The position numbers were made by a program, and so were the translations under genes. A stretch of 59,574 nucleotides of DNA, the filler included, from Diploschistes diacapsis (Eukaryota), in NCBI GenBank assembly GCA_023645945.1. It is 5 parts of 5 records of this genome, joined end to end, with 100 filler letters (N's around TTAATTAATTAA, not from the genome) between each part and the next. Parts side by side here need not be neighbours in the genome. Positions count along the whole stretch, not along the records: positions 35,833 to 47,654 come from JALAIB010000798.1; 4 more parts are not named here. The stretch is one strand, 5' to 3'. Position 1 is the first letter of the stretch; each line of letters begins with the position of its first letter. Under the pieces are notes generated by a model. That model had not been told where the DNA came from and searched no databases. It was given only the letters and a program-made list of their open reading frames with translations. Below, piece by piece: positions 35,833 through 47,654 of this stretch.

Positions 35833-37728
35833 CCTCTCGCCCATCCTCTCCCCCACCTCCTTCCCCTCCCTGACCGCCGCGTACGCCTCCTCAAAGTACC
35901 CCTCCGGCGGGCCCAGCCCCCCCATCTTCTTCTCCCCGCCACTGCCTATGGAGCTCCAACCGACCCGATGCGCCGTCCCGCCACCAAGCTTCTTGCTCAT
36001 GCGCCCGCACCCCAGCAGCGCCTGTGCCAGCACCTCGTAGTCGTCCATCACCATTCCCGTTCCCATCCGCTTACCACCACCACCGCCCCACCCCCTCATC
36101 TCCGCCGCCGCCCTCTTATACGCCTCGAACGCCTCGTACCGCAGCTCTTTCACGCGGCTCTTCGGCGCCTTCCCACGCTTCTCGTCCACACGGGCCTCGC
36201 GCGCTTTCAGATGCGCCTTGTTGAGCCGGGCCCGCGCCAGGAGGCCGGGGGAGGCTGCACGACTGGCGCGCCCGGCGAGGGCGAAGGCCGTGTCGTTGGC
36301 GGCATAGGCCTTGGTCAAGTGCGGCGCGGCTGGGAGTTGGACTTGCGAGAGGCCGAGCTCGGCGAGGGTTTGGAGGTGGGCCTTGCGGAAGAGAAGGGAG
36401 TCAAGGCTGCTGCTGCTGCTGCTGGCAGCGGAGGAGGATGGGGAGGGCGGGTAGGAGAGGGCGGATTTTTCGGTGACGCAGGTGAGGATCTTGAGGGCGT
36501 TGTGGTAGCGCTGTCGTGCGATGCCCGGGTAGTCGAGGGTGCAGTTGGAGCCTTCGCGGATTTCGGCGAGGGTGGAGATTAGGGCTTCGTCTGCGGTTTG
36601 GGTTAGGGAGGTTGTTTGGGGCTGGAGAGAGGATGTTTTGGCGTTGAGGATTAGGGATGGGTTGGGTGGTGAGAGCTCGAGATAAAAAAAGATGTAACTT
36701 ACTCGGATCTTGGGGCAGGGGAAGACGGGAGGAGTGCGCTGTTGCGACTGAGGGTTCGGACTTGTCATCCAGGTCGATTTGGGGGACTGAGGTGTTGTCG
36801 GAAATGCCACTCAAGTTCGGAGTCTCAAATTGAATCGCTGCGATAGCTTGGCTGGGTTGCTTCTTCAAGGGATAGCATCTATTTTCGTCTTGATTCTAGG
36901 AAAGATAAGTTTGAGGGGACGCTGACCGCAAGGGCGTTGTGGGCTACCAGTGCTTCGGCTGAGAGACCCTCTACTACACGTGGTACAGGCCCAGAGTCGG
37001 TCATCATGACGCCGACGACCTGCGCATGGTAGACATTATATGTGTTATGGATTTGGGTCGTCCCTTGGAAACTGACGGTACTGGAGTTGGTCTGGAAGTT
37101 CTGCGTGCTTGCCTTTGCAGAGTCCAAGGAGATGCCGGAAGAAGCGGGTTGTTTCGCCTGCTACCTTATTAGATCATGCAGACTAGGACTAACTTATGAA
37201 GCTGGCCTTTAACTGCGATACGAGGTCCTTGATCTTGTCATCGAGCCTCGCTCCAACTCGATCAACAGTCTTTTCTATTTCTTGTGAGGTAAGGGGTACC
37301 GCACCGGCTTGATAGATGACAAGCTGATAGCGCATAATCTCCTCGGCCAATTCGTTGACCTTACTTTCGTGTGATAGGTTAGAAGCAGACTTAAAGAGTA
37401 GCTTGAATCGACTCGTATTCTCTGCGGGCTTCATCCGCTCGAAGGCGTTTGCGAGTTCGTTCACTTTCGCCTGACAACTCTCGACAGCAGGCTTCAGAGT
37501 CTTTGCGGTCTCTTGATCCAGCTCGCCGGCGTCTATCTGAGCCTTGGTCTTGATAAGAGTAAGCTCAAAAAGTGGCAGAACAACCTGTAAATTCTCAAAG
37601 GCCTTTGGAACATCTCTTGTTTTCTGGTGCAGCGCGATGGTGTCCTCAACGACACTTTTGCAGAAATTCAGCACAGATACCACATTGCTGATGACCCCAA
37701 CGACCGCCAAAAACTCTGCGCCAGACAT
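35833..37728 (-). CDS. SesA (HeLo-like, NLR N-terminal type) domain protein with polar linker and helical/TPR-like C-terminus; about 4 exons, 3' truncated
   Basis: MSGAEFLAVVGVISNVVSVLNF...DVPKAFENLQVVLPLFELTLIKTKAQIDAGELDQETAKTLKPAVESCQAKV...SRFKLLFKSASNLSHESKV matches the SesA pattern as I recall it. Phase-compatible splice sites link it to the ORFs at 37157-36929, ~36865-36703 and 36590-35833; the linkage of exons 2 and 3 is less certain. Confidence 0.72.
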
Positions 37729-38354
37729 CTTCGCAGGATTCTCGACGAGCGCACTCAGCAATGAATTGGCTAGACTAGGTTCCTCCTGCCGTTGATCGAC
37801 TTTGGGATTCTCCGCTTTCGTCTAGCAATATCGCATCGCATTCGGTAGTCTAAATGTAAAACTTTAGCCGGACCTTACTGGATTGACGCACACCACCATC
37901 TTGCAAAAAAAAAGGAATGAAAGATATCAACGGCGTTTTCATCATCAAGCGACGTATAGAGCTTGCTACAGTACTTCCGTGAGCGCACTTGTGAGCTTGC
38001 AGAGAATGCCCAGAAGGAGAACCTCGACTGACTGCTCGCTCACGCACAAAAACCCCAAGTAAAGTAGCCACAAAATTCCTACTTTGATGAGCCTTAATTT
38101 CCATTCGGCATTTTGGTAACGCAGTGAGTAGATCAACTCAAGAGCTGTGATACGACACGTGGGTTTGTTGCGCCATTAAGCATCCGTGGTTGCTGTTCGT
38201 GAATGTTGATTGCTTTAGGAAGAGCGACGCTCTCGGTGCGTTGCCAGGATGAACAACACAATGTTTTGGTCATATTTCTCTTCGCTCTGTGATCTATTTG
38301 CTTTCTCTATTCCCTCGTCTGTCATATTTTCGCTCATTGCTCTACCTGTTCCGC

Positions 38355-39935
38355 ATGATTATGGCATTGCTACTGAATTCGATCCCTCATCTCTCGCGAG
38401 CGGAGCGCTGGCAGACGGCGTTCTTCGTCACCGGGATTTTTTGCATAAAGTACTCGTGGGAGAGCACCTCAGTAACAGGCTTGACAGTCAACAGATTCGA
38501 CCGAGAGGCCCTTCGACACCATACAAACGCCAAGTCGTTCGGCCAGTACGGTGTCTTATCTTTGCTCTCGATCCTGTTCAGTGCGTTGGGGAGCACATTC
38601 GTCGCACCGCTTGTTAAGAGATGGCCTATGAGGTTGGTGTTAGGATGTTGTGGGCTGCTTCAAGCTTTGACCGGCGTCGCGTTGCTCGCTTTGGAGGCAG
38701 GAACTGGCGGGAAGATCAAGCCTGGTAACTGGGACAAGACACATCAAGCTGATAACTTTAGCTACTATGGTGAATACAATCCATACGGTCTTGTGCCCCT
38801 GTTCTGTTTGTCAGGGTTTTTCTGGGGCATCATAACCACTATGCAGAAGACGGTGCCAAGGCAGATCGTCGCTCCCACTATTACAAAGCTACAGTTTCTC
38901 AACGCAGCCACACAAACCTTCTATGAGGTAGCAGCTATCGCCGGTGCGCTTTGCTCAGGGCTCCTCTTTATCCCTCACTTTGGAGCGAATTTCCCTATTC
39001 TCACCCCAATATTTGCCGCGCTTGCCGGGTTGGCCTGGTTCTTTCTGAGAGATACCCGATCATCTCGTCAGGCTGATTCGACCGAGCCGGGAATTGATCA
39101 AGCAACCGAGGAAGTATCCAGGGCTCCAGATGAGCAAAAGGCCAGGCATTCTGGAGCACCAAATGAAAACGATTCGAAACGTGCGAAAAGGACCTGGGGG
39201 GACTTTATACCTCTGAAGTCACTCTGGCAGGGCGCGGGAATCGTCTGCAAAGATAGGGAGCTCACCTGGCTGCTCATAACTTACCCCCTAATGCAATACG
39301 GCCACAGTTGTCTGGAGAACGTTATTGCCCCTCCGATTGCTGGACGATATCTAGGAGATACTTCTTACGTCCAGATCATTGTCGCCGGATCGAACATCGG
39401 GGAATTCCTCGGCGCCATCGCAGCAATGTTCCTTCAACCATACATCCCAACTCCTATTCCATGGGTTAGGCTCAGTGCTCTCATGAACCTGCTGGTGTGG
39501 ATCTTGCCATTCTGGAGTCCTCCCAAAAAGCCTGTGTCTGCCTGGATTGTGGCTGCGGTTTTTATGCCTATGGGTGCCTTCTGGTCTGCCGCTGCAGTCT
39601 CACTGTACTGCTATTTGCAGACTCAGCTGTCGAACGAGGCTCCGAATGACTCCAAGATGTTACCGCCCTTGAGCAGCGTAGTAGCCTTCTTACACGTTAT
39701 TCAGCTCATTTTGAGCGCGATTGCGGGACCGGTGTTTGGAGCCTATTTCGATGCTGTGGTTGCCCGTACTGGGGGCTTGGGGATGGGAGGCAAGATTCAG
39801 CCTGCGCTGATATACGTGGGAGGGCTCCAATTCTCTGTGATTGCTGGGTTGGTTTGTGCGTCCACATTCTGGCCTCGAGGCGCTATAAGGCTCAATCCCA
39901 AATTGTCGGTGCCAAAGGACGAAGATTTATCCTAG
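38355..39935 (+). CDS. Intronless multi-pass MFS-like membrane protein of an uncharacterised fungal family
   Basis: About 12 hydrophobic segments; motifs APLVKRWP, GTGGKIKP...FSYYG, VPRQIV...FYEVA, GSNIGEFLGA, PTPIPWVR, STFWPRGA. The first in-frame ATG is at 38355 (the ORF track starts at an upstream GTG). Confidence 0.8.
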   Translation: MIMALLLNSIPHLSRAERWQTAFFVTGIFCIKYSWESTSVTGLTVNRFDREALRHHTNAKSFGQYGVLSLLSILFSALGSTFVAPLVKRWPMRLVLGCCGLLQALTGVALLALEAGTGGKIKPGNWDKTHQADNFSYYGEYNPYGLVPLFCLSGFFWGIITTMQKTVPRQIVAPTITKLQFLNAATQTFYEVAAIAGALCSGLLFIPHFGANFPILTPIFAALAGLAWFFLRDTRSSRQADSTEPGIDQATEEVSRAPDEQKARHSGAPNENDSKRAKRTWGDFIPLKSLWQGAGIVCKDRELTWLLITYPLMQYGHSCLENVIAPPIAGRYLGDTSYVQIIVAGSNIGEFLGAIAAMFLQPYIPTPIPWVRLSALMNLLVWILPFWSPPKKPVSAWIVAAVFMPMGAFWSAAAVSLYCYLQTQLSNEAPNDSKMLPPLSSVVAFLHVIQLILSAIAGPVFGAYFDAVVARTGGLGMGGKIQPALIYVGGLQFSVIAGLVCASTFWPRGAIRLNPKLSVPKDEDLS

Positions 39936-40137
39936 TGTGTAGATGATTGGAATGTATTAGTAGCTTAATCTACATTTGCCATAGCGAAGCGCTCTAAGCT
40001 CTTGAGACGCATCTCCTTCGTCATTTCATTGGTCCTTTTAAGGCACCCGGAAGCGCTTCAAGCTCTTGAAATTAATCAAAGCGGTACATTGAATTGAGCT
40101 TCTGATTATTGTAGAAGCTGTAATTCCCCTGCCCAGC

Positions 40138-40930
40138 TTACCACCACCCCGTCCCCGGCCTCCCTTTCATAGTTTCCCTCTGTACCTCACTGGTGACCCA
40201 CCCCCCATAGAAGTCGCCCGGCTGCGCCTCCACCTCCTCACCGTCGACAAAGCACTGCCAAGGACCCGCGTAGAAGGAGAGATACCCCCTGATTGGCGTG
40301 AAACTCTGCGTGGGCGACTCATAGGACCAAATGCGGCTGCGTACGGTAGAGGGAGGGGCCCCCGGTGAAGCGGAAGAGGTGGCAGTATCTTGGGGAAGGG
40401 ATAAATCCCAGTATGTTGCTGGACCTTTCCACTCGCACATTGTGGAGCGGGAGGGAGATTTGGTTAGGAGCGTGGAGAAGGGGGGGACGAGGGAGGTGGG
40501 TGGGAGGTAGTATGCTGCATCGAAGGTCAGAGACGTGGAATGAGAGAACAAAAGTTCAAAGCTAGGATTGGTCTGAAGTAGCGGATGATATATGAGGAAT
40601 GTGGTAGACAGAATAGGACAAGCATACTCTTAACGAGCAGTATACAGCATTGTGGCACGTTACACGCTTAAGCAGATTTAGTAGCTTACTTGGCGGATGA
40701 TAGGTCTCAAGAACCCAGTAAGCTTCCTTTGTATCAGCTACCAGATTCCCATTCCACTTAATCTGCAAACGCCGTGGTGTGCGCTCCAGGAGCGGCGGAC
40801 GAGGGAACGTTGCAGGAATGAGAGGCGGCTTGGGCGGCATCCTGGTTCCGGTCCTTGAGAGGATTGCTAAAACGATTGCAAGGAGAGAAGCAGTAAAAGT
40901 CACGATACGCTTTTTGTAATTTGAAAGCAT
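40138..40930 (-). CDS. DUF427-domain protein, 2 exons
   Basis: FPRPP, VADTKEAYWVLETYHPP/TYYLPP, TMCEWKGPATYW, WSYESP, GYLSFYA, QPGDFYGGWVT, KGRPGTGWW*. The start may be 40930 or 40840. Confidence 0.88.
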
Positions 40931-41287
40931 TCATAGATGTATTGCTAAGCATTCGAGGAGCATCCCGTCCCCTTTTGTCCATGAAGCGCCGGAAACCGAG
41001 ATATCTGCACGATGATGACATTGGAGGCTCAAGATCGCTGCAATAAGATAAGCGAGCCTTTTAGCAGATGAGAAAGCTTGGCATTCGGTGAAACTAAAAA
41101 CCCGGGACCGAGGACGACAACACTTCCCAGACAACGGCGCTTGGCTATTTACTAAGTTAGTCAAGCGAGTGATGTAAATAACTGCTATTCAGTCCCAATT
41201 ATTTTCTCGCATACCCACTATTTTCTCCAGTTCTAAATTTCCCTTTACGAAGACCTCAACCATCTCATTGTACTATCCTCGAGAGAG

Positions 41288-43899
41288 ATGGAGTCTTCCA
41301 AATCCCCCCTTTTCGAAGTCTACCTCCGCCTGCGCCCTCCGCACCTCCAAACATCCCTCTACCCCCAACTTCCTTCCTCCACCGTGAATATCACCGTACC
41401 AGAGCGCTTTCTCACGGTAGAACCCCCGTCGTCGACTTCGGCTACCTTCGCAGATGGTTGTACGCAGCCTACACACATCACCATCCACCCGCCTTCCGAC
41501 TCACGGAAACGGGCGATTGAGAAGTTCGGCTTCACGCGGGTGTTTGAGGAGCAGACGAGTCAATTAGAGGTCTTCGAGGCTACGGGCGCTGCGAGGTTAG
41601 TTGAAGGGGTGCTCGATGAAGGGAGAGATGGGCTGCTCGCTACGCTAGGGGTCACGGGAAGTGGAAAGGTAAGTGCTTGGTTATGGTTGAATATCGAGGC
41701 TGGGTGTTGAGATAGGATGGTTGTGCTGACGGCATGGCGATAACAGAGTCATACGATACTCGGATCTCGAGCGCAGAGAGGCTTGACGCAATTAGGTCTC
41801 GATTTGCTCTTCCGTAGTTTGGGAGAGAAGACGCTACATCCGGCCAGCCATACTTCGCTCATCTCCTCACTCGTTGCAGCGGATACTTCAGAAGCACACA
41901 TCCAATCCGCATTCGGATTTCTGGAGACTGTCTATGGTGATGGATGGGTTAGCAACTCAAGAGCGGCTACGCCAATGACGGTAGGCAAAGACGATTTTCA
42001 TTTACCAGAAACACAACCTCAGACCCGATCAAAGGGTCTGTGGAAGCATTGGGATCTTCTTGATCTCGGAAGTGGCTCGGGCCAGCAAGACAAAAAGAAT
42101 GATGAAAGAAAGACTGCACAAGCATCACCGGCAAAATTTGCCTTTTGGAATTCCCCCAAAATTAAAGATGCAAAGACTAAGGCTCGCTTCGGCAATGCTT
42201 CACAGGATGTTAGCTTTGTACCTCGCCGAAACCTTCCGCAGCGCCCGTCTGCGCTCCCAACGTTACCTGATATCAGCAAAGTGACCGTTTCTTCGACAGA
42301 GAACATGGACTACGCCGTCTTGGTCTCCATGTACGAAGTATACAACGACCGCATATTTGACTTGCTCTCCCATCCTCGAAGCTTCAAAGACCACCGCCGA
42401 CGACCGCTTCTTTTCAAGTCGACCGAGGGTTCCGATCATAAGGTTGTGGCTGGATTGAAGAAGATCGTATGCGGAAGCTACGAAGAAGCACTTATGGTGT
42501 TGGAAACAGGTCTTATGGAGCGACGTGTGGCTGGGACTGGGAGCAATACTGTCAGTTCCAGGAGTCATGGCTTTTTCTGCATGGAAGTCAAGAAGAGAGC
42601 AAAGCATGGCATGTCGAGCGCTTGGACAGGCTCGCAGCTCACTATCGTCGACCTAGCTGGTAAGCTGACATTTCCATCAAGAGGTTCTCACCATTGACCA
42701 GAATAGGCTCCGAAAGAGCGCGCAACGCAAAGACTGCAGGCGCTACCTTGGCTGAAGCGGGCAAGATTAACGAGAGTCTAATGTACTTAGGACAGTGCCT
42801 ACAGTTGCAAAGCGACCAGAGTGATTCGAATAAGGTAATCCAAATTATCCCGACAAATTCAGAAGCCAGGGACTAACGACCCTAGCCATCCGTCGTTCCG
42901 TTCCGACAATGCAAGCTTACCGAATTACTGTTCTCGAATTCTTTCCCCTCCGCCCATGCTCTTCCCAGCCGTCAGCATCATCAACGCAGTGTTCAGAAGG
43001 GCGTCATGATAGTCACTGCAGATCCGCTCGGTGACTTCAATGCCACATCGCAGATACTTCGCTACTCGGCGCTCGCTCGCGAAATAACGGTGCCACGGAT
43101 ACCTTCGGTAACAAGCATCGTATTCCACGGGGCTCCAAATCCACGGACGCTGCAAACGCATAGCGGCCGAACGTCTCCAAACGACGTATCGGCCGAGCTT
43201 GAGGCTGCAAACGCAGAAATGGAGCGTCTGAACGATCAGCTTGAACTGATGGCCCTGCACCTTGTCGAAGAGAAGGCAAGACGGAGGGAGGCAGAAGCGA
43301 ATTGGCAGAGAGCTGATGAACGGGCCGAGAGCATCGAGGCTGAGGTTCGCGAAGATTGCTGGAGCGAGATGGAGAAAAAGATCATGGGCGAACGCAGGCA
43401 GTGGATGAACGCCATGGGAGAAGAGGCAGATCGCAATGACGCACATCTCGACCGCAAGTTGGAGATTCTCACGCAAGGTATTCAAAGTGAGACTTCGTTT
43501 TCCCGTGCTTCTCGGATTAGGATGCTAATATTAGCCTCAGTCCACGAAGATCCGCCATCTACGAGGATCGTAGATCTCGAAGACGAAAACGCGGCACTGC
43601 ATCGCAGGATTGCAGCGCTTGAGCGCGAAATACTCGGCCGGTCGCCGACCAAGCCAATGAAGCCCACGCCGCTGCAGGAGATCCACCTCATCGACGACGA
43701 TCCGTTTGGCATAGAGGACAAGGAGAACGAGGGCAGCATCATGAGACTGGCGTCACTCAAACTCATGGACAACGCAGCGGCAGAGTCAAAACAAGAAACG
43801 AGGCAGCCGAAGACTCAAAAAATGCCTGGTAAGAAGATGAGGAAGCTAACACCCCGGACGAACGTTGGGTTAGGAGATGAAGAACCAGTCGCAGCGTAG
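41288..43899 (+). CDS. Kinesin motor protein, kinesin-6 (Klp9/MKLP-like), at least 5 exons
   Basis: FEVYLRLRP, LGVTGSGK/SHT (P-loop), SMYEVYNDRIFDLL, SSRSH, VDLA/GSERARNAKT...KINESLMYLGQCL, VPFRQCKLTELLF, then a coiled-coil tail. Confidence 0.92.
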
Positions 43900-44414
43900 G
43901 AGGGTCACCAGGGTCTCCGCGCTTACCTGTTTGTTCCATCTGGATAAAATCAGTGTTTTCAAATAGATAGATACCATTCTGTTTTATAATTAATAAGCTA
44001 TGGAGTTGCATTGCGCAAAGCACTATGCTGCACAGTGCTTAGAGCCTCATCTACCATTAACGCAGTGCAACGGGTGGGGGCAGTGCCTGACGCTCCTGTT
44101 TTGGAATGTTGCATAGACGGGTTAGGCTGACCGGGCGAGACTTGTTTCCTAAAGAAGTAGTCACTCGTAAACTAGAGATTCGTTTCCGGTCAAAAAAACC
44201 ATTTTGAGGGTAGAGAACGGGATTGGGGGGTTGCATTGTGTGGCTGAGTCTTTTTTACGCCATGAACCCGTTGTGGCTTGACAAGGGGCCGTGATTGGGG
44301 GATTTTGGTAAAGGTCGAGCACGTCAACGTCAAACGCCAGCCAACGGGGTTTTTGCGAGACTTGGGCCACTTGCAAACCAAAAACCCCCCCCCCCCAAGC
44401 GAGAGCGACTAGCC

Positions 44415-44466
44415 CCCGGGGTGAAACTTCAGTCTGAAATCCCGGGGTGAAACTTCAGTCTGAAAT
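44415..44466. repeat. Perfect 26-bp tandem duplication CCCGGGGTGAAACTTCAGTCTGAAAT x2
   Basis: Seen directly at 44415-44440 and 44441-44466, about 400 bp upstream of the Zn2Cys6 gene. Confidence 0.93.
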
Positions 44467-44872
44467 TTGGGGTAGCCCCTGGTGCAGGCCCGCATTAACC
44501 TTATCACCGCCGCCGTGGTGGCTTACTTACCCTACCTGTCTTGCCTCTGTTCCTGATATCGAGTGACCGACACCAAACGAACACATATCGCTGGCTGGCG
44601 TTTCTGGGTTTCTAAATTGGGATCCTTCTCTTCGTCTTCATAAACAATCCATGTCATCCTCCGGGCTTCGAGCGACGAATCTATACTTAAAGCTCCTGCA
44701 CGACCTCTTCATCAGACGTCCCTCACCATCTCCATCTCTTGTTTCATGATTTCGACTTCAGGAGAGATATATATGTACTAGGTAGCTTTGATTACGAACA
44801 GCAACGGAAACCAAGGTGCTCGAAAAGATCATCTACCGACCAAACCATTTGGCCCTAGCATCACATCCGATA

Positions 44873-46293
44873 ATGCCGTCCCGGAGATGGCACCAGAAGA
44901 GCCATCACGGGTGCTCGACGTGCAAGGCGCGCAAAGTCAAGGTACGCCAACATCTCCCACAAATTCAATGGCAGAGATACTCAAGTGGACGAACAGTGTG
45001 ATGAGACCCGACCCACATGGTTCATACGCCAGGCCCACTCTCATTCCCCTTCTGCCGCTAACCCTCCTTAGCAAGAACTGCGCCAAACAAGGTCGACCCT
45101 GCCAATACACGAGCGAGGCAAACGTTGCGATACCCATGTCGTCTGTACCATTTTCGGCCGGCTCGTCTCAATACGGTTTCATCGACTTTCAGACTGGTCG
45201 CAAAGTCATGTCGCCCGGCTCACCGCCCTTTATGTATTGTAGGGACTCGAGCAGAGACTCTATGAGCTTCCACGCCACTACCCCAGGATCTGTTTCGTCC
45301 AAAGAGCAGAAGCAGGAACCGCTGACAGTGTCCGCTTGTCTGGACCTCAGCCTCATGCATCATTACACCCGGCACACCTATGCTACGCTTGTAGATCTCG
45401 AGACGGCAGTACCCGTCTGGCGGGACAAGTTTCCGATCGAGGCGGCTTCTCACCCCTTCCTGATGCATGGCTTGCTCTCTCTTGCAGCTCTGCACATTGC
45501 CATGGAAGACCTTCCGTCGCACAAGACCTACGTGGATCACGCCCTGCAGCATTACACGTCTGCCATTACGCTCTACAGGCCGGAGCTCATCAACGTCACG
45601 CAAAAAAATTGCCACGCACTCTTCGGCTTCTCTAGTGTCGCGGCTCTTATTTCGCTTGCTGTATCCATGGCATCCCATCACACTGGGACGGCGCTACTCA
45701 ACGACATTCACGACATCTTCAACCTACTCAAGGGTATTCACGCCGTCGTCGAAGCGGCAAGGGAGTGGATCAAAGCCGGGCCAGTTGGCGATCTGATCAG
45801 AGATTTCGTTCCTAGGGAGACGGAGCTGCCATCCGAAGTTGAAGAGACTCTCCGCGTCCTACACGAGCGCACCGGGACTTGCGGCGAAAGCGAAGAGCGA
45901 AAGGACGGATACACGGGAGCGATCGAGGCGCTTCGCATGTGGTTCAAAAATACCGTCTACAAACCAGACGACAGGACCCCATCCCTCGTCTGGCCAATCA
46001 TGGTGACCCGCTCGTATATCGATGCGCTGGCAGAGCGTAAACCAATGGCACTTGCTATCTTGGCTCACTACGCCATTTTTCTGTACGATCTGCGCGGATA
46101 CTGGTACGCCGGCGACCGAGGAACACGGATCATCGAAGCCGTTACCGGGCTTCTAAGCCCGGACTGGGCAGACACGCTTCTCTGGCCTAGCAGATATATC
46201 AGCAGGAGGCAATCGTGGGGATACACAGCTCAGGAGCAAGTATTCAAGAAGTCTCCTCCGCCTCACCCACCTTATGAGTACAGATCACCGTAG
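44873..46293 (+). CDS. Zn(II)2Cys6 transcription factor, Upc2/Ecm22-like, 3 exons incl. a 23-nt micro-exon (44997-45019)
   Basis: Spliced MPSRRWHQKSHHGCSTCKARKVK/CDETRPT C/KNCAKQGRPCQY (six Cys); DLSLMHHY, HPFLMHGLLSLAALH, WPIMV...ALAILAHY. Confidence 0.9.
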
Positions 46294-46318
46294 TGGGAAG
46301 ACACGGGGTATTGGATGA

Positions 46319-47654
46319 TCAGACTGAGCCATACACAGGCGTTGCAGGCTCATCACTTGTAGGAGCGTCTTTCTTCTTCCCCAAGGGCTCTCCGCACCAG
46401 ATATACTGTTCACGTCAGAAATGTTTGGAAATGTTTTAACACGCTGGACTCACGGTTGGAATGACGGTCATGGCGGATAATAATCCTATACTCGTTGTCA
46501 TGTTGCCCCACCCAATATTCTCTTTCATGAATCCGCCCCATAGGGGGCCTACGATAGATCCTGCAGCGAATGCCATGTTCGTCAACCCGAAAGCCTGAGC
46601 CAGTGCTCCCCTTTCTCCGTATATGCCAGGACTGCGTCGTTCCACCTCGACCACGATCCTCGAGACTTCGGCGTTCAGCGGAGTCATTCCAATGCTCCAG
46701 CAGATCCCGATGACGGCGAGAAGTGCCACCAGAAAGGCTTTGTCTCCAACCGTGTCATCCGTTACCAAGCGTAAGAGGATGTACGGTGCCACCATGCCAG
46801 CGAAGGCGATTATGACTAACCATCGCGTCCCGTATCTGTCCGCTAGCCGGCCAAGGAATGGCTCGAGGAAGGATGAACAGCACGTCGACAGGAAGAGCAA
46901 GCCAGAGCCCAACGACTCCCACCCGAAGATGTCGTGAACATAGAGCGGCAGCGCGCTATCGAAGGCAGTTATCATGGTGGACAGGACCATGATTCCCCAA
47001 AGGGCCGAGACAAATCTCGGCAGCTGCAGGAACAACAGCATGGGCAGGGGATGAGCCTTCGAGGCCCCTTGCTTGCCTGAAGGCGCTTCCGTGTCCGGCC
47101 TCCTTACCAAGGGGTCTATCTCGTCACGGTCCGCTCTCTCGGGGCCCTCGTCTTCCTCCTCCTTACCGAGCGTCTTCAGCGCCACCTTCCGCTCGATCAT
47201 CGCGGCCCTCAGGACAACATCCAACCCCAGCAACGCAAAGGTCATCGCAAACACAGCATAGTACCCCGCCTTGGCAAACACCACCCCACCGGCCGTCGGC
47301 CCCACCAACGCCCCAAAATTAATCCCAAGACTCACCCACCCCAGCGCCTCCCCCGCGTTCTCCGGGCCCGCCGTCTCGGGCGCCATCGCGAACCCGACGG
47401 CCCACACCACCGCGGCCGCCATGCCCTGCAGCAAGCGGCCGATCAACAATATGGGCACCGTGGTCCCGAAACAGAGCATCACGTTCGCGCCCGTCAGCGC
47501 GAGCAGGCCGAGCATAAAGGGCGTGCGTCGCGAGGAGCTGCGATCCGCGAAGTAGCCGGCCACCGGCGAGCAGATAATGAGGCCGGCGGCGTAGGCGGCC
47601 AGCAGGAGCGAGACCCATTGCTGGACGGAGGATGGGGGGGCGCCGGCCTCATTA
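46319..47654 (-). CDS. MFS transporter (vesicular amine transporter-like), 5' truncated at the contig edge
   Basis: VQQWVSLLLAAY, GYFADRSSSRRTPF, GRLLQGMAAAVVW, LGRLADRYG, AQAFGLTNMAFAAGSIVGPLWGG; short last exon YIWCGEPLG...GSV*. Confidence 0.88.

What the first reader, a model, noticed from the sequence alone, without database searches (positions are those of the whole stretch)
37008..37109. Candidate amyloid-signalling motif directly after a SesA (HeLo-like) domain
Seen: the exon after the SesA domain encodes STQNFQTNSSTVSFQGTTQIHNTYNVYHAQVVGV, 34 residues with no D/E/K/R/P, rich in N/Q/S/T/G, with alternating aromatic or beta-branched residues and a weak xFQx pseudo-repeat. Established: fungal HeLo/HeLo-like/SesA effectors are often activated through a short adjacent amyloid motif (HET-s PFD, sigma, PP/RHIM-like) templated by a matching motif on an NLR. 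Inference: this may be such a motif, and I cannot match it to the HET-s, sigma or PP consensus, so it could be a new family.
Basis: partly seen in the sequence, partly recalled or inferred. Interest (0 to 1): 0.75.

Follow-up and report, generated by a model that had tools for sequence, protein, structure and literature searches.

The report
Death domain, amyloid-like repeat, TPR sensor
A fungal gene joins a cell-death-type domain, a short and unusually well-conserved amyloid-like repeat and a TPR-like binding domain in one protein with no nucleotide-binding domain, which may be a way to trigger cell death by amyloid assembly without the usual immune receptor, though amyloid formation is untested.

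Summary
The peptide is real (minus strand, 37109-37008) and follows a SesA domain (PF17107, E 7e-20). It is probably not a C-terminal tail. Three spliced GenBank orthologues (two Xylographa, one Stictis) read SesA - uncharged N/Q/aromatic segment - linker - TPR-like helical domain, with no NACHT or NB-ARC. The window holds the same parts in the same order across four exons; the exon 2/3 junction is uncertain. The segment is more conserved than either folded domain in two independent pairs: 30/34 identical versus 73% for SesA, and 20/24 versus 53% for SesA and 60% for TPR. Between clades its letters diverge, but it keeps two or three [FY][NQ]x3-5[QTHN][VIF] units. It lacks the PP/RHIM, HRAM, PUASM and GDQN signatures; the sigma test is inconclusive. 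No partner motif was found in the own genome. Best reading (0.35): a one-protein sensor-amyloid-executor, with the central repeat replacing the NLR oligomerisation domain. Rivals: a non-amyloid docking motif (0.3) or templating by an unfound NLR (0.2). Amyloid formation and cell death are inferred, not shown.

The parts
37207..37728 (-). Exon 1: SesA (HeLo-like) domain (Pfam match 37692-37327) with a hydrophobic N-terminal helix, plus a ~40-residue helical extension
   Evidence: PF17107 E 6.9e-20; match coordinates; best 19-residue hydropathy 1.83; 73% identical to P0158
37161..37206 (-). Intron 1, phase 0: a 46-nt GC-AG intron at the position where homologues have GT, or a 61-nt GT-AG intron from 37221; CTAAT branch site near the acceptor. 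If unspliced, the protein stops at 37191-37189
   Evidence: Splice signals. Unspliced homologue calls read through at the same point as x-[KRM]-V. Inference; no RNA
36948..37160 (-). Exon 2 (3' boundary uncertain): spacer, the motif, and the conserved MMTDSGPVPRVVEG
   Evidence: against P0158, spacer 9/17, motif 30/34, post-motif 13/14 identical
37008..37109 (-). Candidate central amyloid-like motif (about residues 192-225 of the model): three units at 37097-37074, 37070-37050 and 37040-37017
36896..36947 (-). Intron 2, simplest candidate (52 nt, weak donor). 38 frame-keeping alternatives exist; without it the frame stops at 36881-36879
   Evidence: unresolved
36703..36895 (-). Exon 3: S/P/T/D-rich linker with the conserved short motif AIAAIQFETP (36847-36818), matching GExIAEIQFEAP in both Xylographa proteins
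   Evidence: 11/12 identical within Xylographa
36591..36702 (-). Intron 3, 112 nt, GTAAGT...CTAAC...CAG, phase 1; the join reads QDP-N-EAL, matching EDPSEAL in P0022
35833..36590 (-). Exon 4: TPR-like alpha-solenoid of about 250 residues, open to the contig end, so the last ~25 residues are missing
   Evidence: AF2 pLDDT 82, eight long helices and one short; Z 13-14 to sNASP, PlcR, LGN and 14-3-3; hhalign probability 96.5 to the C-terminal domain of P0022; homologues P0153-P0156

Best explanation
The gene encodes a protein of at least 562 residues: SesA four-helix bundle, central uncharged repeat, disordered linker, TPR-like domain. It resembles an 'all-in-one' fungal NLR in which the nucleotide-binding domain is replaced by a short self-assembling motif. 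Proposed working: (1) the TPR-like domain binds a ligand or partner, or releases the linker; (2) clustering lets the 2-3 [FY][NQ]x3-5[QTHN][VIF] units stack as a cross-beta beta-arch polymer between copies of the same protein; (3) this frees the hydrophobic N-terminal helix of SesA to attack the membrane, as in HET-S and HELLP. Shown here: the parts, their order in orthologues, the constraint on the motif, the helical fold and the absence of an NBD. Inferred: splicing in this genome, TPR sensing, amyloid assembly, membrane attack and death.
For: The same architecture occurs in three spliced GenBank proteins: MCJ1386909.1, MCJ1396885.1 and MCJ1441605.1. Their only Pfam match above its cut-off is SesA. 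The motif exceeds both folded domains in conservation in two independent pairs: window/P0158 30/34 vs SesA 127/174 (Fisher p 0.04), and the Xylographa pair 20/24 vs SesA 53%, TPR 60% and the rest of the linker 40/109 (p 3e-5; bounds chosen by eye). All 5 segments have no D/E/K/R, 6-12 N+Q and 4-7 aromatics. On an ad hoc composition score over 127 post-SesA segments, P0158 and the window rank first and second, and the family's five segments all fall in the top 13 rows, interleaved with sigma-like tails. Tandem units occur in 5 of 5 family members and in 0 of 157 other proteins (pattern fitted to these sequences). The region is unstructured in the monomer model of P0157 (pLDDT <50), as the HET-S prion domain is before templating (PMC10197012). 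The hydrophobic N-terminal helix is retained in all 5 motif-bearing proteins (1.58-1.96). SesA-family domains are known amyloid-controlled effectors.
Against: There is no direct evidence of amyloid. The motif is glycine-poor (0-3 G per segment vs 5-10 G in 45 residues of six sigma-like tails). Both Xylographa segments hold two prolines, one inside a unit, and proline substitutions served as negative controls for BASS3 (PMC9815663). Between clades the letters are barely alignable: 12/57 window vs P0022, a window+P0158 profile reaches the Stictis motif only at E 0.14 and misses Xylographa, and a Xylographa profile misses P0158. Conserved composition alone also fits a low-complexity region. The neighbouring uncharged-run-free segments MMTDSGPVPRVVEG (13/14) and IAEIQFEAP (11/12) are just as conserved, so constraint is not specific to the amyloid-like part. 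The exon 2/3 junction has only weak donors. Exon 4 has GC3 0.84 vs 0.56-0.62 for exons 1-3 and could be read separately from the ATG at 36768. The SesA tree does not resolve the five proteins as one clade. The TPR Z-scores are at the level common for helical repeats.
Confidence: 0.35

Rival explanations
1. The segment is a conserved non-amyloid docking motif: an extended strand that binds the groove of the protein's own TPR-like domain (autoinhibition of SesA) or a partner protein, together with the IAxIQFExP motif further along the linker.
For: TPR, 14-3-3, LGN and PlcR folds are the nearest structures, and several of those entries are peptide complexes. Two other short linker motifs are equally conserved. 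Prolines and few glycines fit a linear motif.
Against: The full-length AF2 model places no part of residues 143-306 confidently on the TPR domain (pTM 0.47, 10-sequence alignment; weak test). Total absence of charge over 19-55 residues in 5 of 5 proteins and a tandem period of 7-10 residues are more than a single docking strand needs.
Confidence: 0.3
2. One reading: a classical amyloid-gated effector whose motif is templated in trans by an NLR (or other protein) with a matching motif that I did not find. It may act through a short isoform ending soon after the motif.
For: Without intron 2 the frame ends 42 residues after the motif, which would make it near-terminal. NLR and effector genes need not be adjacent (PMC9815663). 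The genome has at least 47 NACHT-type and 11 NB-ARC matches, is in 4,361 contigs, and the DNA downstream of the gene is missing.
Against: Exon 2 as a protein query finds only itself. A tight DNA pattern finds only itself. A loose one gives 12 matches vs 9 in the control; of the four in-frame matches one is the gene itself and the other three lie in charged or very short open frames. A five-sequence profile finds nothing below E 0.6 in 87 fetched loci (312 kb) or the rest of the window. The upstream neighbours on the contig are not NLRs. All three spliced orthologues continue into the TPR-like domain.
Confidence: 0.2
3. The segment is a prion-like or low-complexity spacer that serves condensation or spacing in a scaffold protein unrelated to cell death, or the gene is decaying or split in this genome.
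For: Poor letter conservation between clades. A GC donor with a weak consensus at intron 1 and weak donors at intron 2. Low-complexity insertions and high GC3 in exon 4. Five of ten further SesA proteins of this group have lost the hydrophobic N-helix.
Against: 83-88% identity within clades, above the folded domains. All four exons are open and join without a stop. The exon-3 motif is still conserved.
Confidence: 0.15

Closest known systems
SesA / SesB / Het-eN sigma-motif cluster of Nectria haematococca (PF17107, PF17106)
   Same: SesA domain followed by an N/Q-rich segment of about 40 residues built of sub-repeats (PMC5485727).
   Different: Here the motif is central, glycine-poor and followed by a TPR-like domain. 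No NLR or lipase neighbour is seen on the contig. The SesA domain lies outside the set of sigma-like-tailed SesA proteins (99% SH-aLRT set).
HET-S/NWD2, HELLF/FNT1 (HRAM) and HELLP/PNT1 (PP) two-gene systems
   Same: HeLo-like domain with a hydrophobic first helix, directly followed by a candidate amyloid region that is unstructured as a monomer.
   Different: No GxQxG, no HRAM register, motif not C-terminal in spliced orthologues, no matching NLR found.
All-in-one SesA/HeLo-like NLRs, including those with an internal amyloid-like motif (4 HeLo-like+sigma, 1 HeLo-like+PP, Fibularhizoctonia MLKL-like NLRs; PMC9815663)
   Same: Effector domain, internal motif and C-terminal repeat domain in one chain; internal motifs were proposed there to scaffold oligomers.
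   Different: Those keep NACHT or NB-ARC. This family has none, so the motif would be the only oligomerising element.
RHIM proteins of animals (central amyloid motif in multidomain proteins)
   Same: Central position of the motif; PMC7889193 section 10 names RHIM as the one motif thought to work centrally.
   Different: No GxQxG core and no RHIM Pfam match; fused directly to the executor domain, with no kinase step.

Membership tests
Amyloid-gated HeLo/HELL/SesA effectors | N-terminal HeLo, HeLo-like or SesA domain | tested here: met
   PF17107 E 6.9e-20, above cut-off
Amyloid-gated HeLo/HELL/SesA effectors | Hydrophobic N-terminal helix with membrane propensity | tested here: met
   Best 19-residue mean hydropathy 1.83; 1.58-1.96 in the four other motif-bearing proteins (scale typed from recall)
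Amyloid-gated HeLo/HELL/SesA effectors | Motif at the C-terminus of the effector | tested here: not met
   About 240-490 residues follow the motif in 3 of 3 spliced orthologues. In the window a short isoform is not excluded
Amyloid-gated HeLo/HELL/SesA effectors | Matching motif at an NLR N-terminus, usually in the adjacent gene | tested here: inconclusive
   None found, but the genome is fragmented, the downstream side is missing, and the profile search covered about 1% of it
Amyloid-gated HeLo/HELL/SesA effectors | Motif forms infectious cross-beta amyloid and triggers death | not testable with these tools
   Needs experiment
Sigma motif (PF17106) | Match to the sigma profile | tested here: inconclusive
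   No match in 6 family queries at E<=10, but only 3 of 9 sigma-like tails picked by eye matched (best E 9e-5) and none reached the cut-off; no match in the own genome
PP / RHIM / BASS3 | GxQxG core (PMC5485727) | tested here: not met
   Absent in 4 of 5 regions scanned; the one match, in P0157, lies in the linker outside the motif
HRAM (HET-s related) | Hydrophobic residues at 3, 6, 8 and 14, G at 17, usually two 21-residue repeats | tested here: not met
   Best register 3 of 4, and only when the G lies beyond the uncharged run. The published HRAM profile file could not be read
PUASM and GDQN motifs | FxGxGxQxxGxGxF; GxGDQN core | tested here: not met
   0 of 5 (patterns)
NLR01-NLR44 and BASS1-10 motif profiles | Match to the published HMMs or grammars | not testable with these tools
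   The .hmm and .fa supplements are unreadable here; six 5-letter cores were absent from the 8 of 11 text supplements searched
Fungal NLR | Central NACHT or NB-ARC domain | tested here: not met
   No such Pfam match in 3 of 3 full-length orthologues or in the window exons, while control P0139 matched
Fungal NLR | C-terminal superstructure-forming repeat (TPR, ANK, WD) | tested here: inconclusive
   A confident helical solenoid with Z 13-14 to TPR proteins, but no Pfam TPR match, no Foldseek hit at E<=0.001, and such Z values are common for helical repeats

The most novel reading that the evidence does not exclude
A family of ascomycete proteins, including lecanoromycete fungi, carries a complete NLR-independent amyloid death switch in one chain: a TPR-like sensor, a new centrally placed amyloid motif of 2-3 short beta-arch units that replaces the nucleotide-binding domain, and a SesA pore-forming domain. 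Members that have lost the hydrophobic N-helix could act as HET-s-like disarmed, prion-competent forms.
Probability: 0.3. Interest if true: 0.85.

Novelty: new variant of a known kind. Interest (0 to 1): 0.62.

Why it matters
A 2021 review (PMC7889193, section 10) lists as an open question whether fungi have signalling amyloids in pathways that do not depend on NLRs. It notes that only RHIM is thought to work from a central position, and that searches so far were biased to NLR N-termini and effector C-termini. This family has a central candidate motif, no nucleotide-binding domain and three named orthologues, so the question becomes testable with a 34-residue peptide and the standard Podospora assay. 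If the motif is only a docking site, the result is still an unannotated SesA-TPR architecture, of moderate interest.

Tried and rejected
No RNA holder was listed for the locus, so splicing is untested. The prediction of four copies of the motif gave no verdict (score 0.02, alignment not used). SesA exon against longer proteins found nothing. Two metagenome locus scans (TPR alignment, SesA alignment) confirmed no locus, so no orthologue DNA, gene neighbourhood or dN/dS was obtained. The ESM Atlas gave only weak TPR-like leads for exon 4 (recognition below threshold) and no usable hit for exon 2. Foldseek gave no match at E<=0.001 for either model. The missing C-terminal end of the gene was not found on another contig with one 39-residue query. 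An NLR partner was sought by protein query, two DNA patterns, a composition scan upstream of 45 NLR/SesA loci (4 weak windows, none like the motif) and a profile on 87 loci; none was found. Rejected: (a) the GT donor at 37193, which would put exon 2 in another frame, because the intron would be 33-36 nt and P0158 conserves the motif frame; (b) reading exon 4 as an unrelated gene, because its domain is fused to SesA in three orthologues and the exon-3 motif and the junction match, although a split in this genome is not excluded; (c) treating the contig next door in the window as a genomic neighbour, because the window is five contigs joined by N spacers. The tree is the quick search on 69 of 154 rows; the careful search did not finish. 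Earlier findings of the scan: nothing by place or by sequence.

Full report
1. The observation. The window is five contigs joined by N spacers. The finding lies on G000:C4138 (window 35833-47654). The quoted peptide is encoded on the minus strand at 37109-37008. It sits in a 38-residue run without D, E, K, R or P, the richest in N+Q of the 22 such runs in the window's six frames. The exon upstream (ATG 37728) is SesA (PF17107, E 6.9e-20) with a hydrophobic first helix. Intron 1 has a CTAAT branch site and two phase-0 donors that keep the motif frame. Unspliced gene calls of related SesA proteins read through at the same point, which marks a conserved intron.

2. A search of 1.84 billion representatives with the SesA exon gave 570 hits, of which 150 were listed. 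One, P0022 (MCJ1386909.1, Xylographa soralifera, 453 aa), continues after SesA with an uncharged N/Q/S/F segment, a linker and a helical domain. That domain is homologous to the open frame at 36590-35833 (hhalign probability 96.5, E 1e-9). A profile search added P0157 (MCJ1396885.1, X. trunciseda, 531 aa) and P0158. Cluster look-up added P0159 (MCJ1441605.1, Stictis urceolata, 691 aa). X. soralifera and S. urceolata are Ostropomycetidae; that these are lichen-associated fungi is recalled. In the window the linker motif AIAAIQFETP and the junction QDP-N-EAL match IAEIQFEAP and EDPSEAL of Xylographa. The four exons join into at least 562 codons without a stop, with the motif at residues 192-225 and the helical domain from about 311. 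Caveats: intron 2 has only weak donors and 38 frame-keeping candidates, and unspliced it gives a stop 42 residues after the motif. Exon 4 has GC3 0.84 against 0.56-0.62 for the other exons and could start alone at 36768. No RNA run was listed.

3. The C-terminal domain. AlphaFold2 on an 8-row alignment gives a confident all-helical solenoid (pLDDT 82, pTM 0.80). The nearest natural folds are TPR and TPR-like proteins (sNASP Z 14.1, rmsd 4.7, 174 aligned; 14-3-3 Z 13.8; PlcR 13.7; LGN 13.2). Foldseek finds no match at E<=0.001 and Pfam has no match above cut-off, so 'TPR-like' is a fold description, not a family assignment. None of the three full-length orthologues has NACHT or NB-ARC. In the full-length model of P0157, residues 143-306, which include the motif, have pLDDT below 50.

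4. Is the segment constrained? Against P0158 the motif is 30/34 identical, SesA 127/174 (73%) and the TPR part 94/140 (67%); Fisher p 0.04, and the best 34-residue window of SesA reaches 29. In the independent Xylographa pair the core is 20/24 identical, against 53% for SesA, 60% for TPR and 40/109 for the rest of the linker (p 3e-5, with bounds chosen by eye). Between clades the letters diverge: 12/57 for window vs P0022 (pairwise E 1e-4). A window+P0158 profile ranks the Stictis motif first among non-self hits, but only at E 0.14, and misses Xylographa. What persists in 5 of 5 is position, absence of charge, N/Q plus aromatics, and back-to-back units [FY][NQ]x3-5[QTHN][VIF]: three in the window and P0158, two in each of the others, and no tandem pair in 157 other proteins (52,453 residues). 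That pattern was fitted to these sequences, so its shuffle p-values are optimistic. Two other short linker pieces are conserved just as well (13/14 and 11/12), which weakens any claim that constraint alone points to amyloid.

5. Partner search. The own genome has 7 SesA, at least 47 NACHT-type and 11 NB-ARC matches. Exon 2 as a query finds only itself, as does a tight DNA pattern. A loose pattern is at chance level (12 vs 9 in the control). A composition scan upstream of 45 loci and a profile over 87 loci (312 kb, about 1% of the genome) found nothing like it. The upstream neighbours are a hydrophobic protein without a Pfam match (transporter-like by eye), DUF427, a kinesin and a fungal transcription factor. 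The downstream side is lost at the contig end. A partner is therefore not found, but not excluded.

6. Mechanism. Established in the papers read: HeLo, HeLo-like and SesA domains are MLKL-related; the characterised HeLo and HeLo-like effectors are triggered when an adjacent motif is templated into amyloid, which releases an N-terminal helix (PMC5485727 parts 1-2 of 4; passages of PMC10197012, PMC12881547 and bioRxiv 2020.01.06.895854). In NLRs, the nucleotide-binding domain supplies the oligomerisation. Inferred here: with no such domain, the central repeat supplies the oligomerisation and the TPR-like domain supplies sensing or restraint (0.35). A non-amyloid docking role (0.3), templating by an unfound NLR (0.2) and a spacer or decaying gene (0.15) remain. 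Amyloid in either form thus has about 0.55. Low glycine content and the prolines in the Xylographa copies count against it.

7. Comparison with known systems. It works like, at best, HET-S, HELLP or SesA. It is not a member of the two-gene class, because the motif is not C-terminal and no paired NLR is seen. It is not an NLR, because it has no NBD. PP/RHIM, HRAM, PUASM and GDQN signatures are absent. Sigma is inconclusive by Pfam, since only 3 of 9 sigma-like controls matched at all, but the SesA domain groups apart from sigma-like-tailed SesA proteins in a quick tree. The same tree leaves the Xylographa and Stictis domains unresolved. Internal amyloid-like motifs are described inside NLRs that keep their NBD (PMC9815663: passages, part 4 of 13, and supplement searches). 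That paper's HMM and FASTA supplements, which could match this motif, were unreadable. Six literature searches and the passages I read from eight papers (also PMC12261475; PMC4986451; PMC7889193 passages and section 10) showed no description of a SesA-motif-TPR protein without an NBD; subscription papers were not searched. NBD-less SesA fusions as such may not be rare: P0129 and a locus on C1746 look like others. Other reports of this scan describe unclassified fungal motif pairs (unchecked), so a new motif alone would be ordinary. The architecture is what is unusual.

8. Verdict. This is a new variant of a known kind: a conserved, central, amyloid-like repeat in an apparently undescribed SesA-TPR-like family. 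Interest 0.62. The NLR-independent single-chain switch has probability 0.3, and interest 0.85 if true.

Noticed in passing
P0059, P0084, P0097, P0132, P0146: Five of ten further SesA proteins that share the helical extension and intron position have lost the hydrophobic N-terminal helix (hydropathy 0.3-1.3 vs 1.6-2.0), reminiscent of the disarmed HET-s allele; their downstream exons were not seen.
   Followed up: partly
window 36847-36818 (-): A second conserved linker motif, AIAAIQFETP, matches GExIAEIQFEAP (11/12 identical between the two Xylographa proteins); a candidate ligand for the TPR-like groove.
   Followed up: partly
window 36590-35833 (-): Exon 4 has GC 0.67 and GC3 0.84, against 0.49-0.54 and 0.56-0.62 for exons 1-3, and carries Ser/Ala- and Gly-rich insertions absent from homologues; unexplained.
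   Followed up: no
window 37206 (-): The intron-1 donor is GC with a weak consensus at the position where homologues appear to have GT; an in-frame GT donor lies 15 nt upstream.
   Followed up: partly
L080 = G000:C1746:3231-3599 (-) and downstream: A weak SesA-like domain followed by an exon with TPR-like and ankyrin-like sequence (by eye) and no visible NBD: another NBD-less effector-repeat gene in this genome.
   Followed up: no
P0129: SesA fused to a C-terminal region of repeated beta-propeller-like units (by eye, no Pfam match), again without an NBD.
   Followed up: no
G000:C402: Two NACHT-type genes and a SesA-NLR gene with an in-frame stop and frame breaks cluster within about 12 kb.
   Followed up: no
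window 38253-39935 (+): A 560-codon hydrophobic ORF divergent from the SesA gene, transporter-like by eye, with no Pfam match at E<=1.
   Followed up: no
P0099, P0102, P0104, P0110, P0125, P0130, P0136, P0139, P0147: SesA proteins with G/N/Q-rich tails form one supported set in the tree; Pfam's sigma model matches only three of the eight scanned, all below its cut-off.
   Followed up: partly
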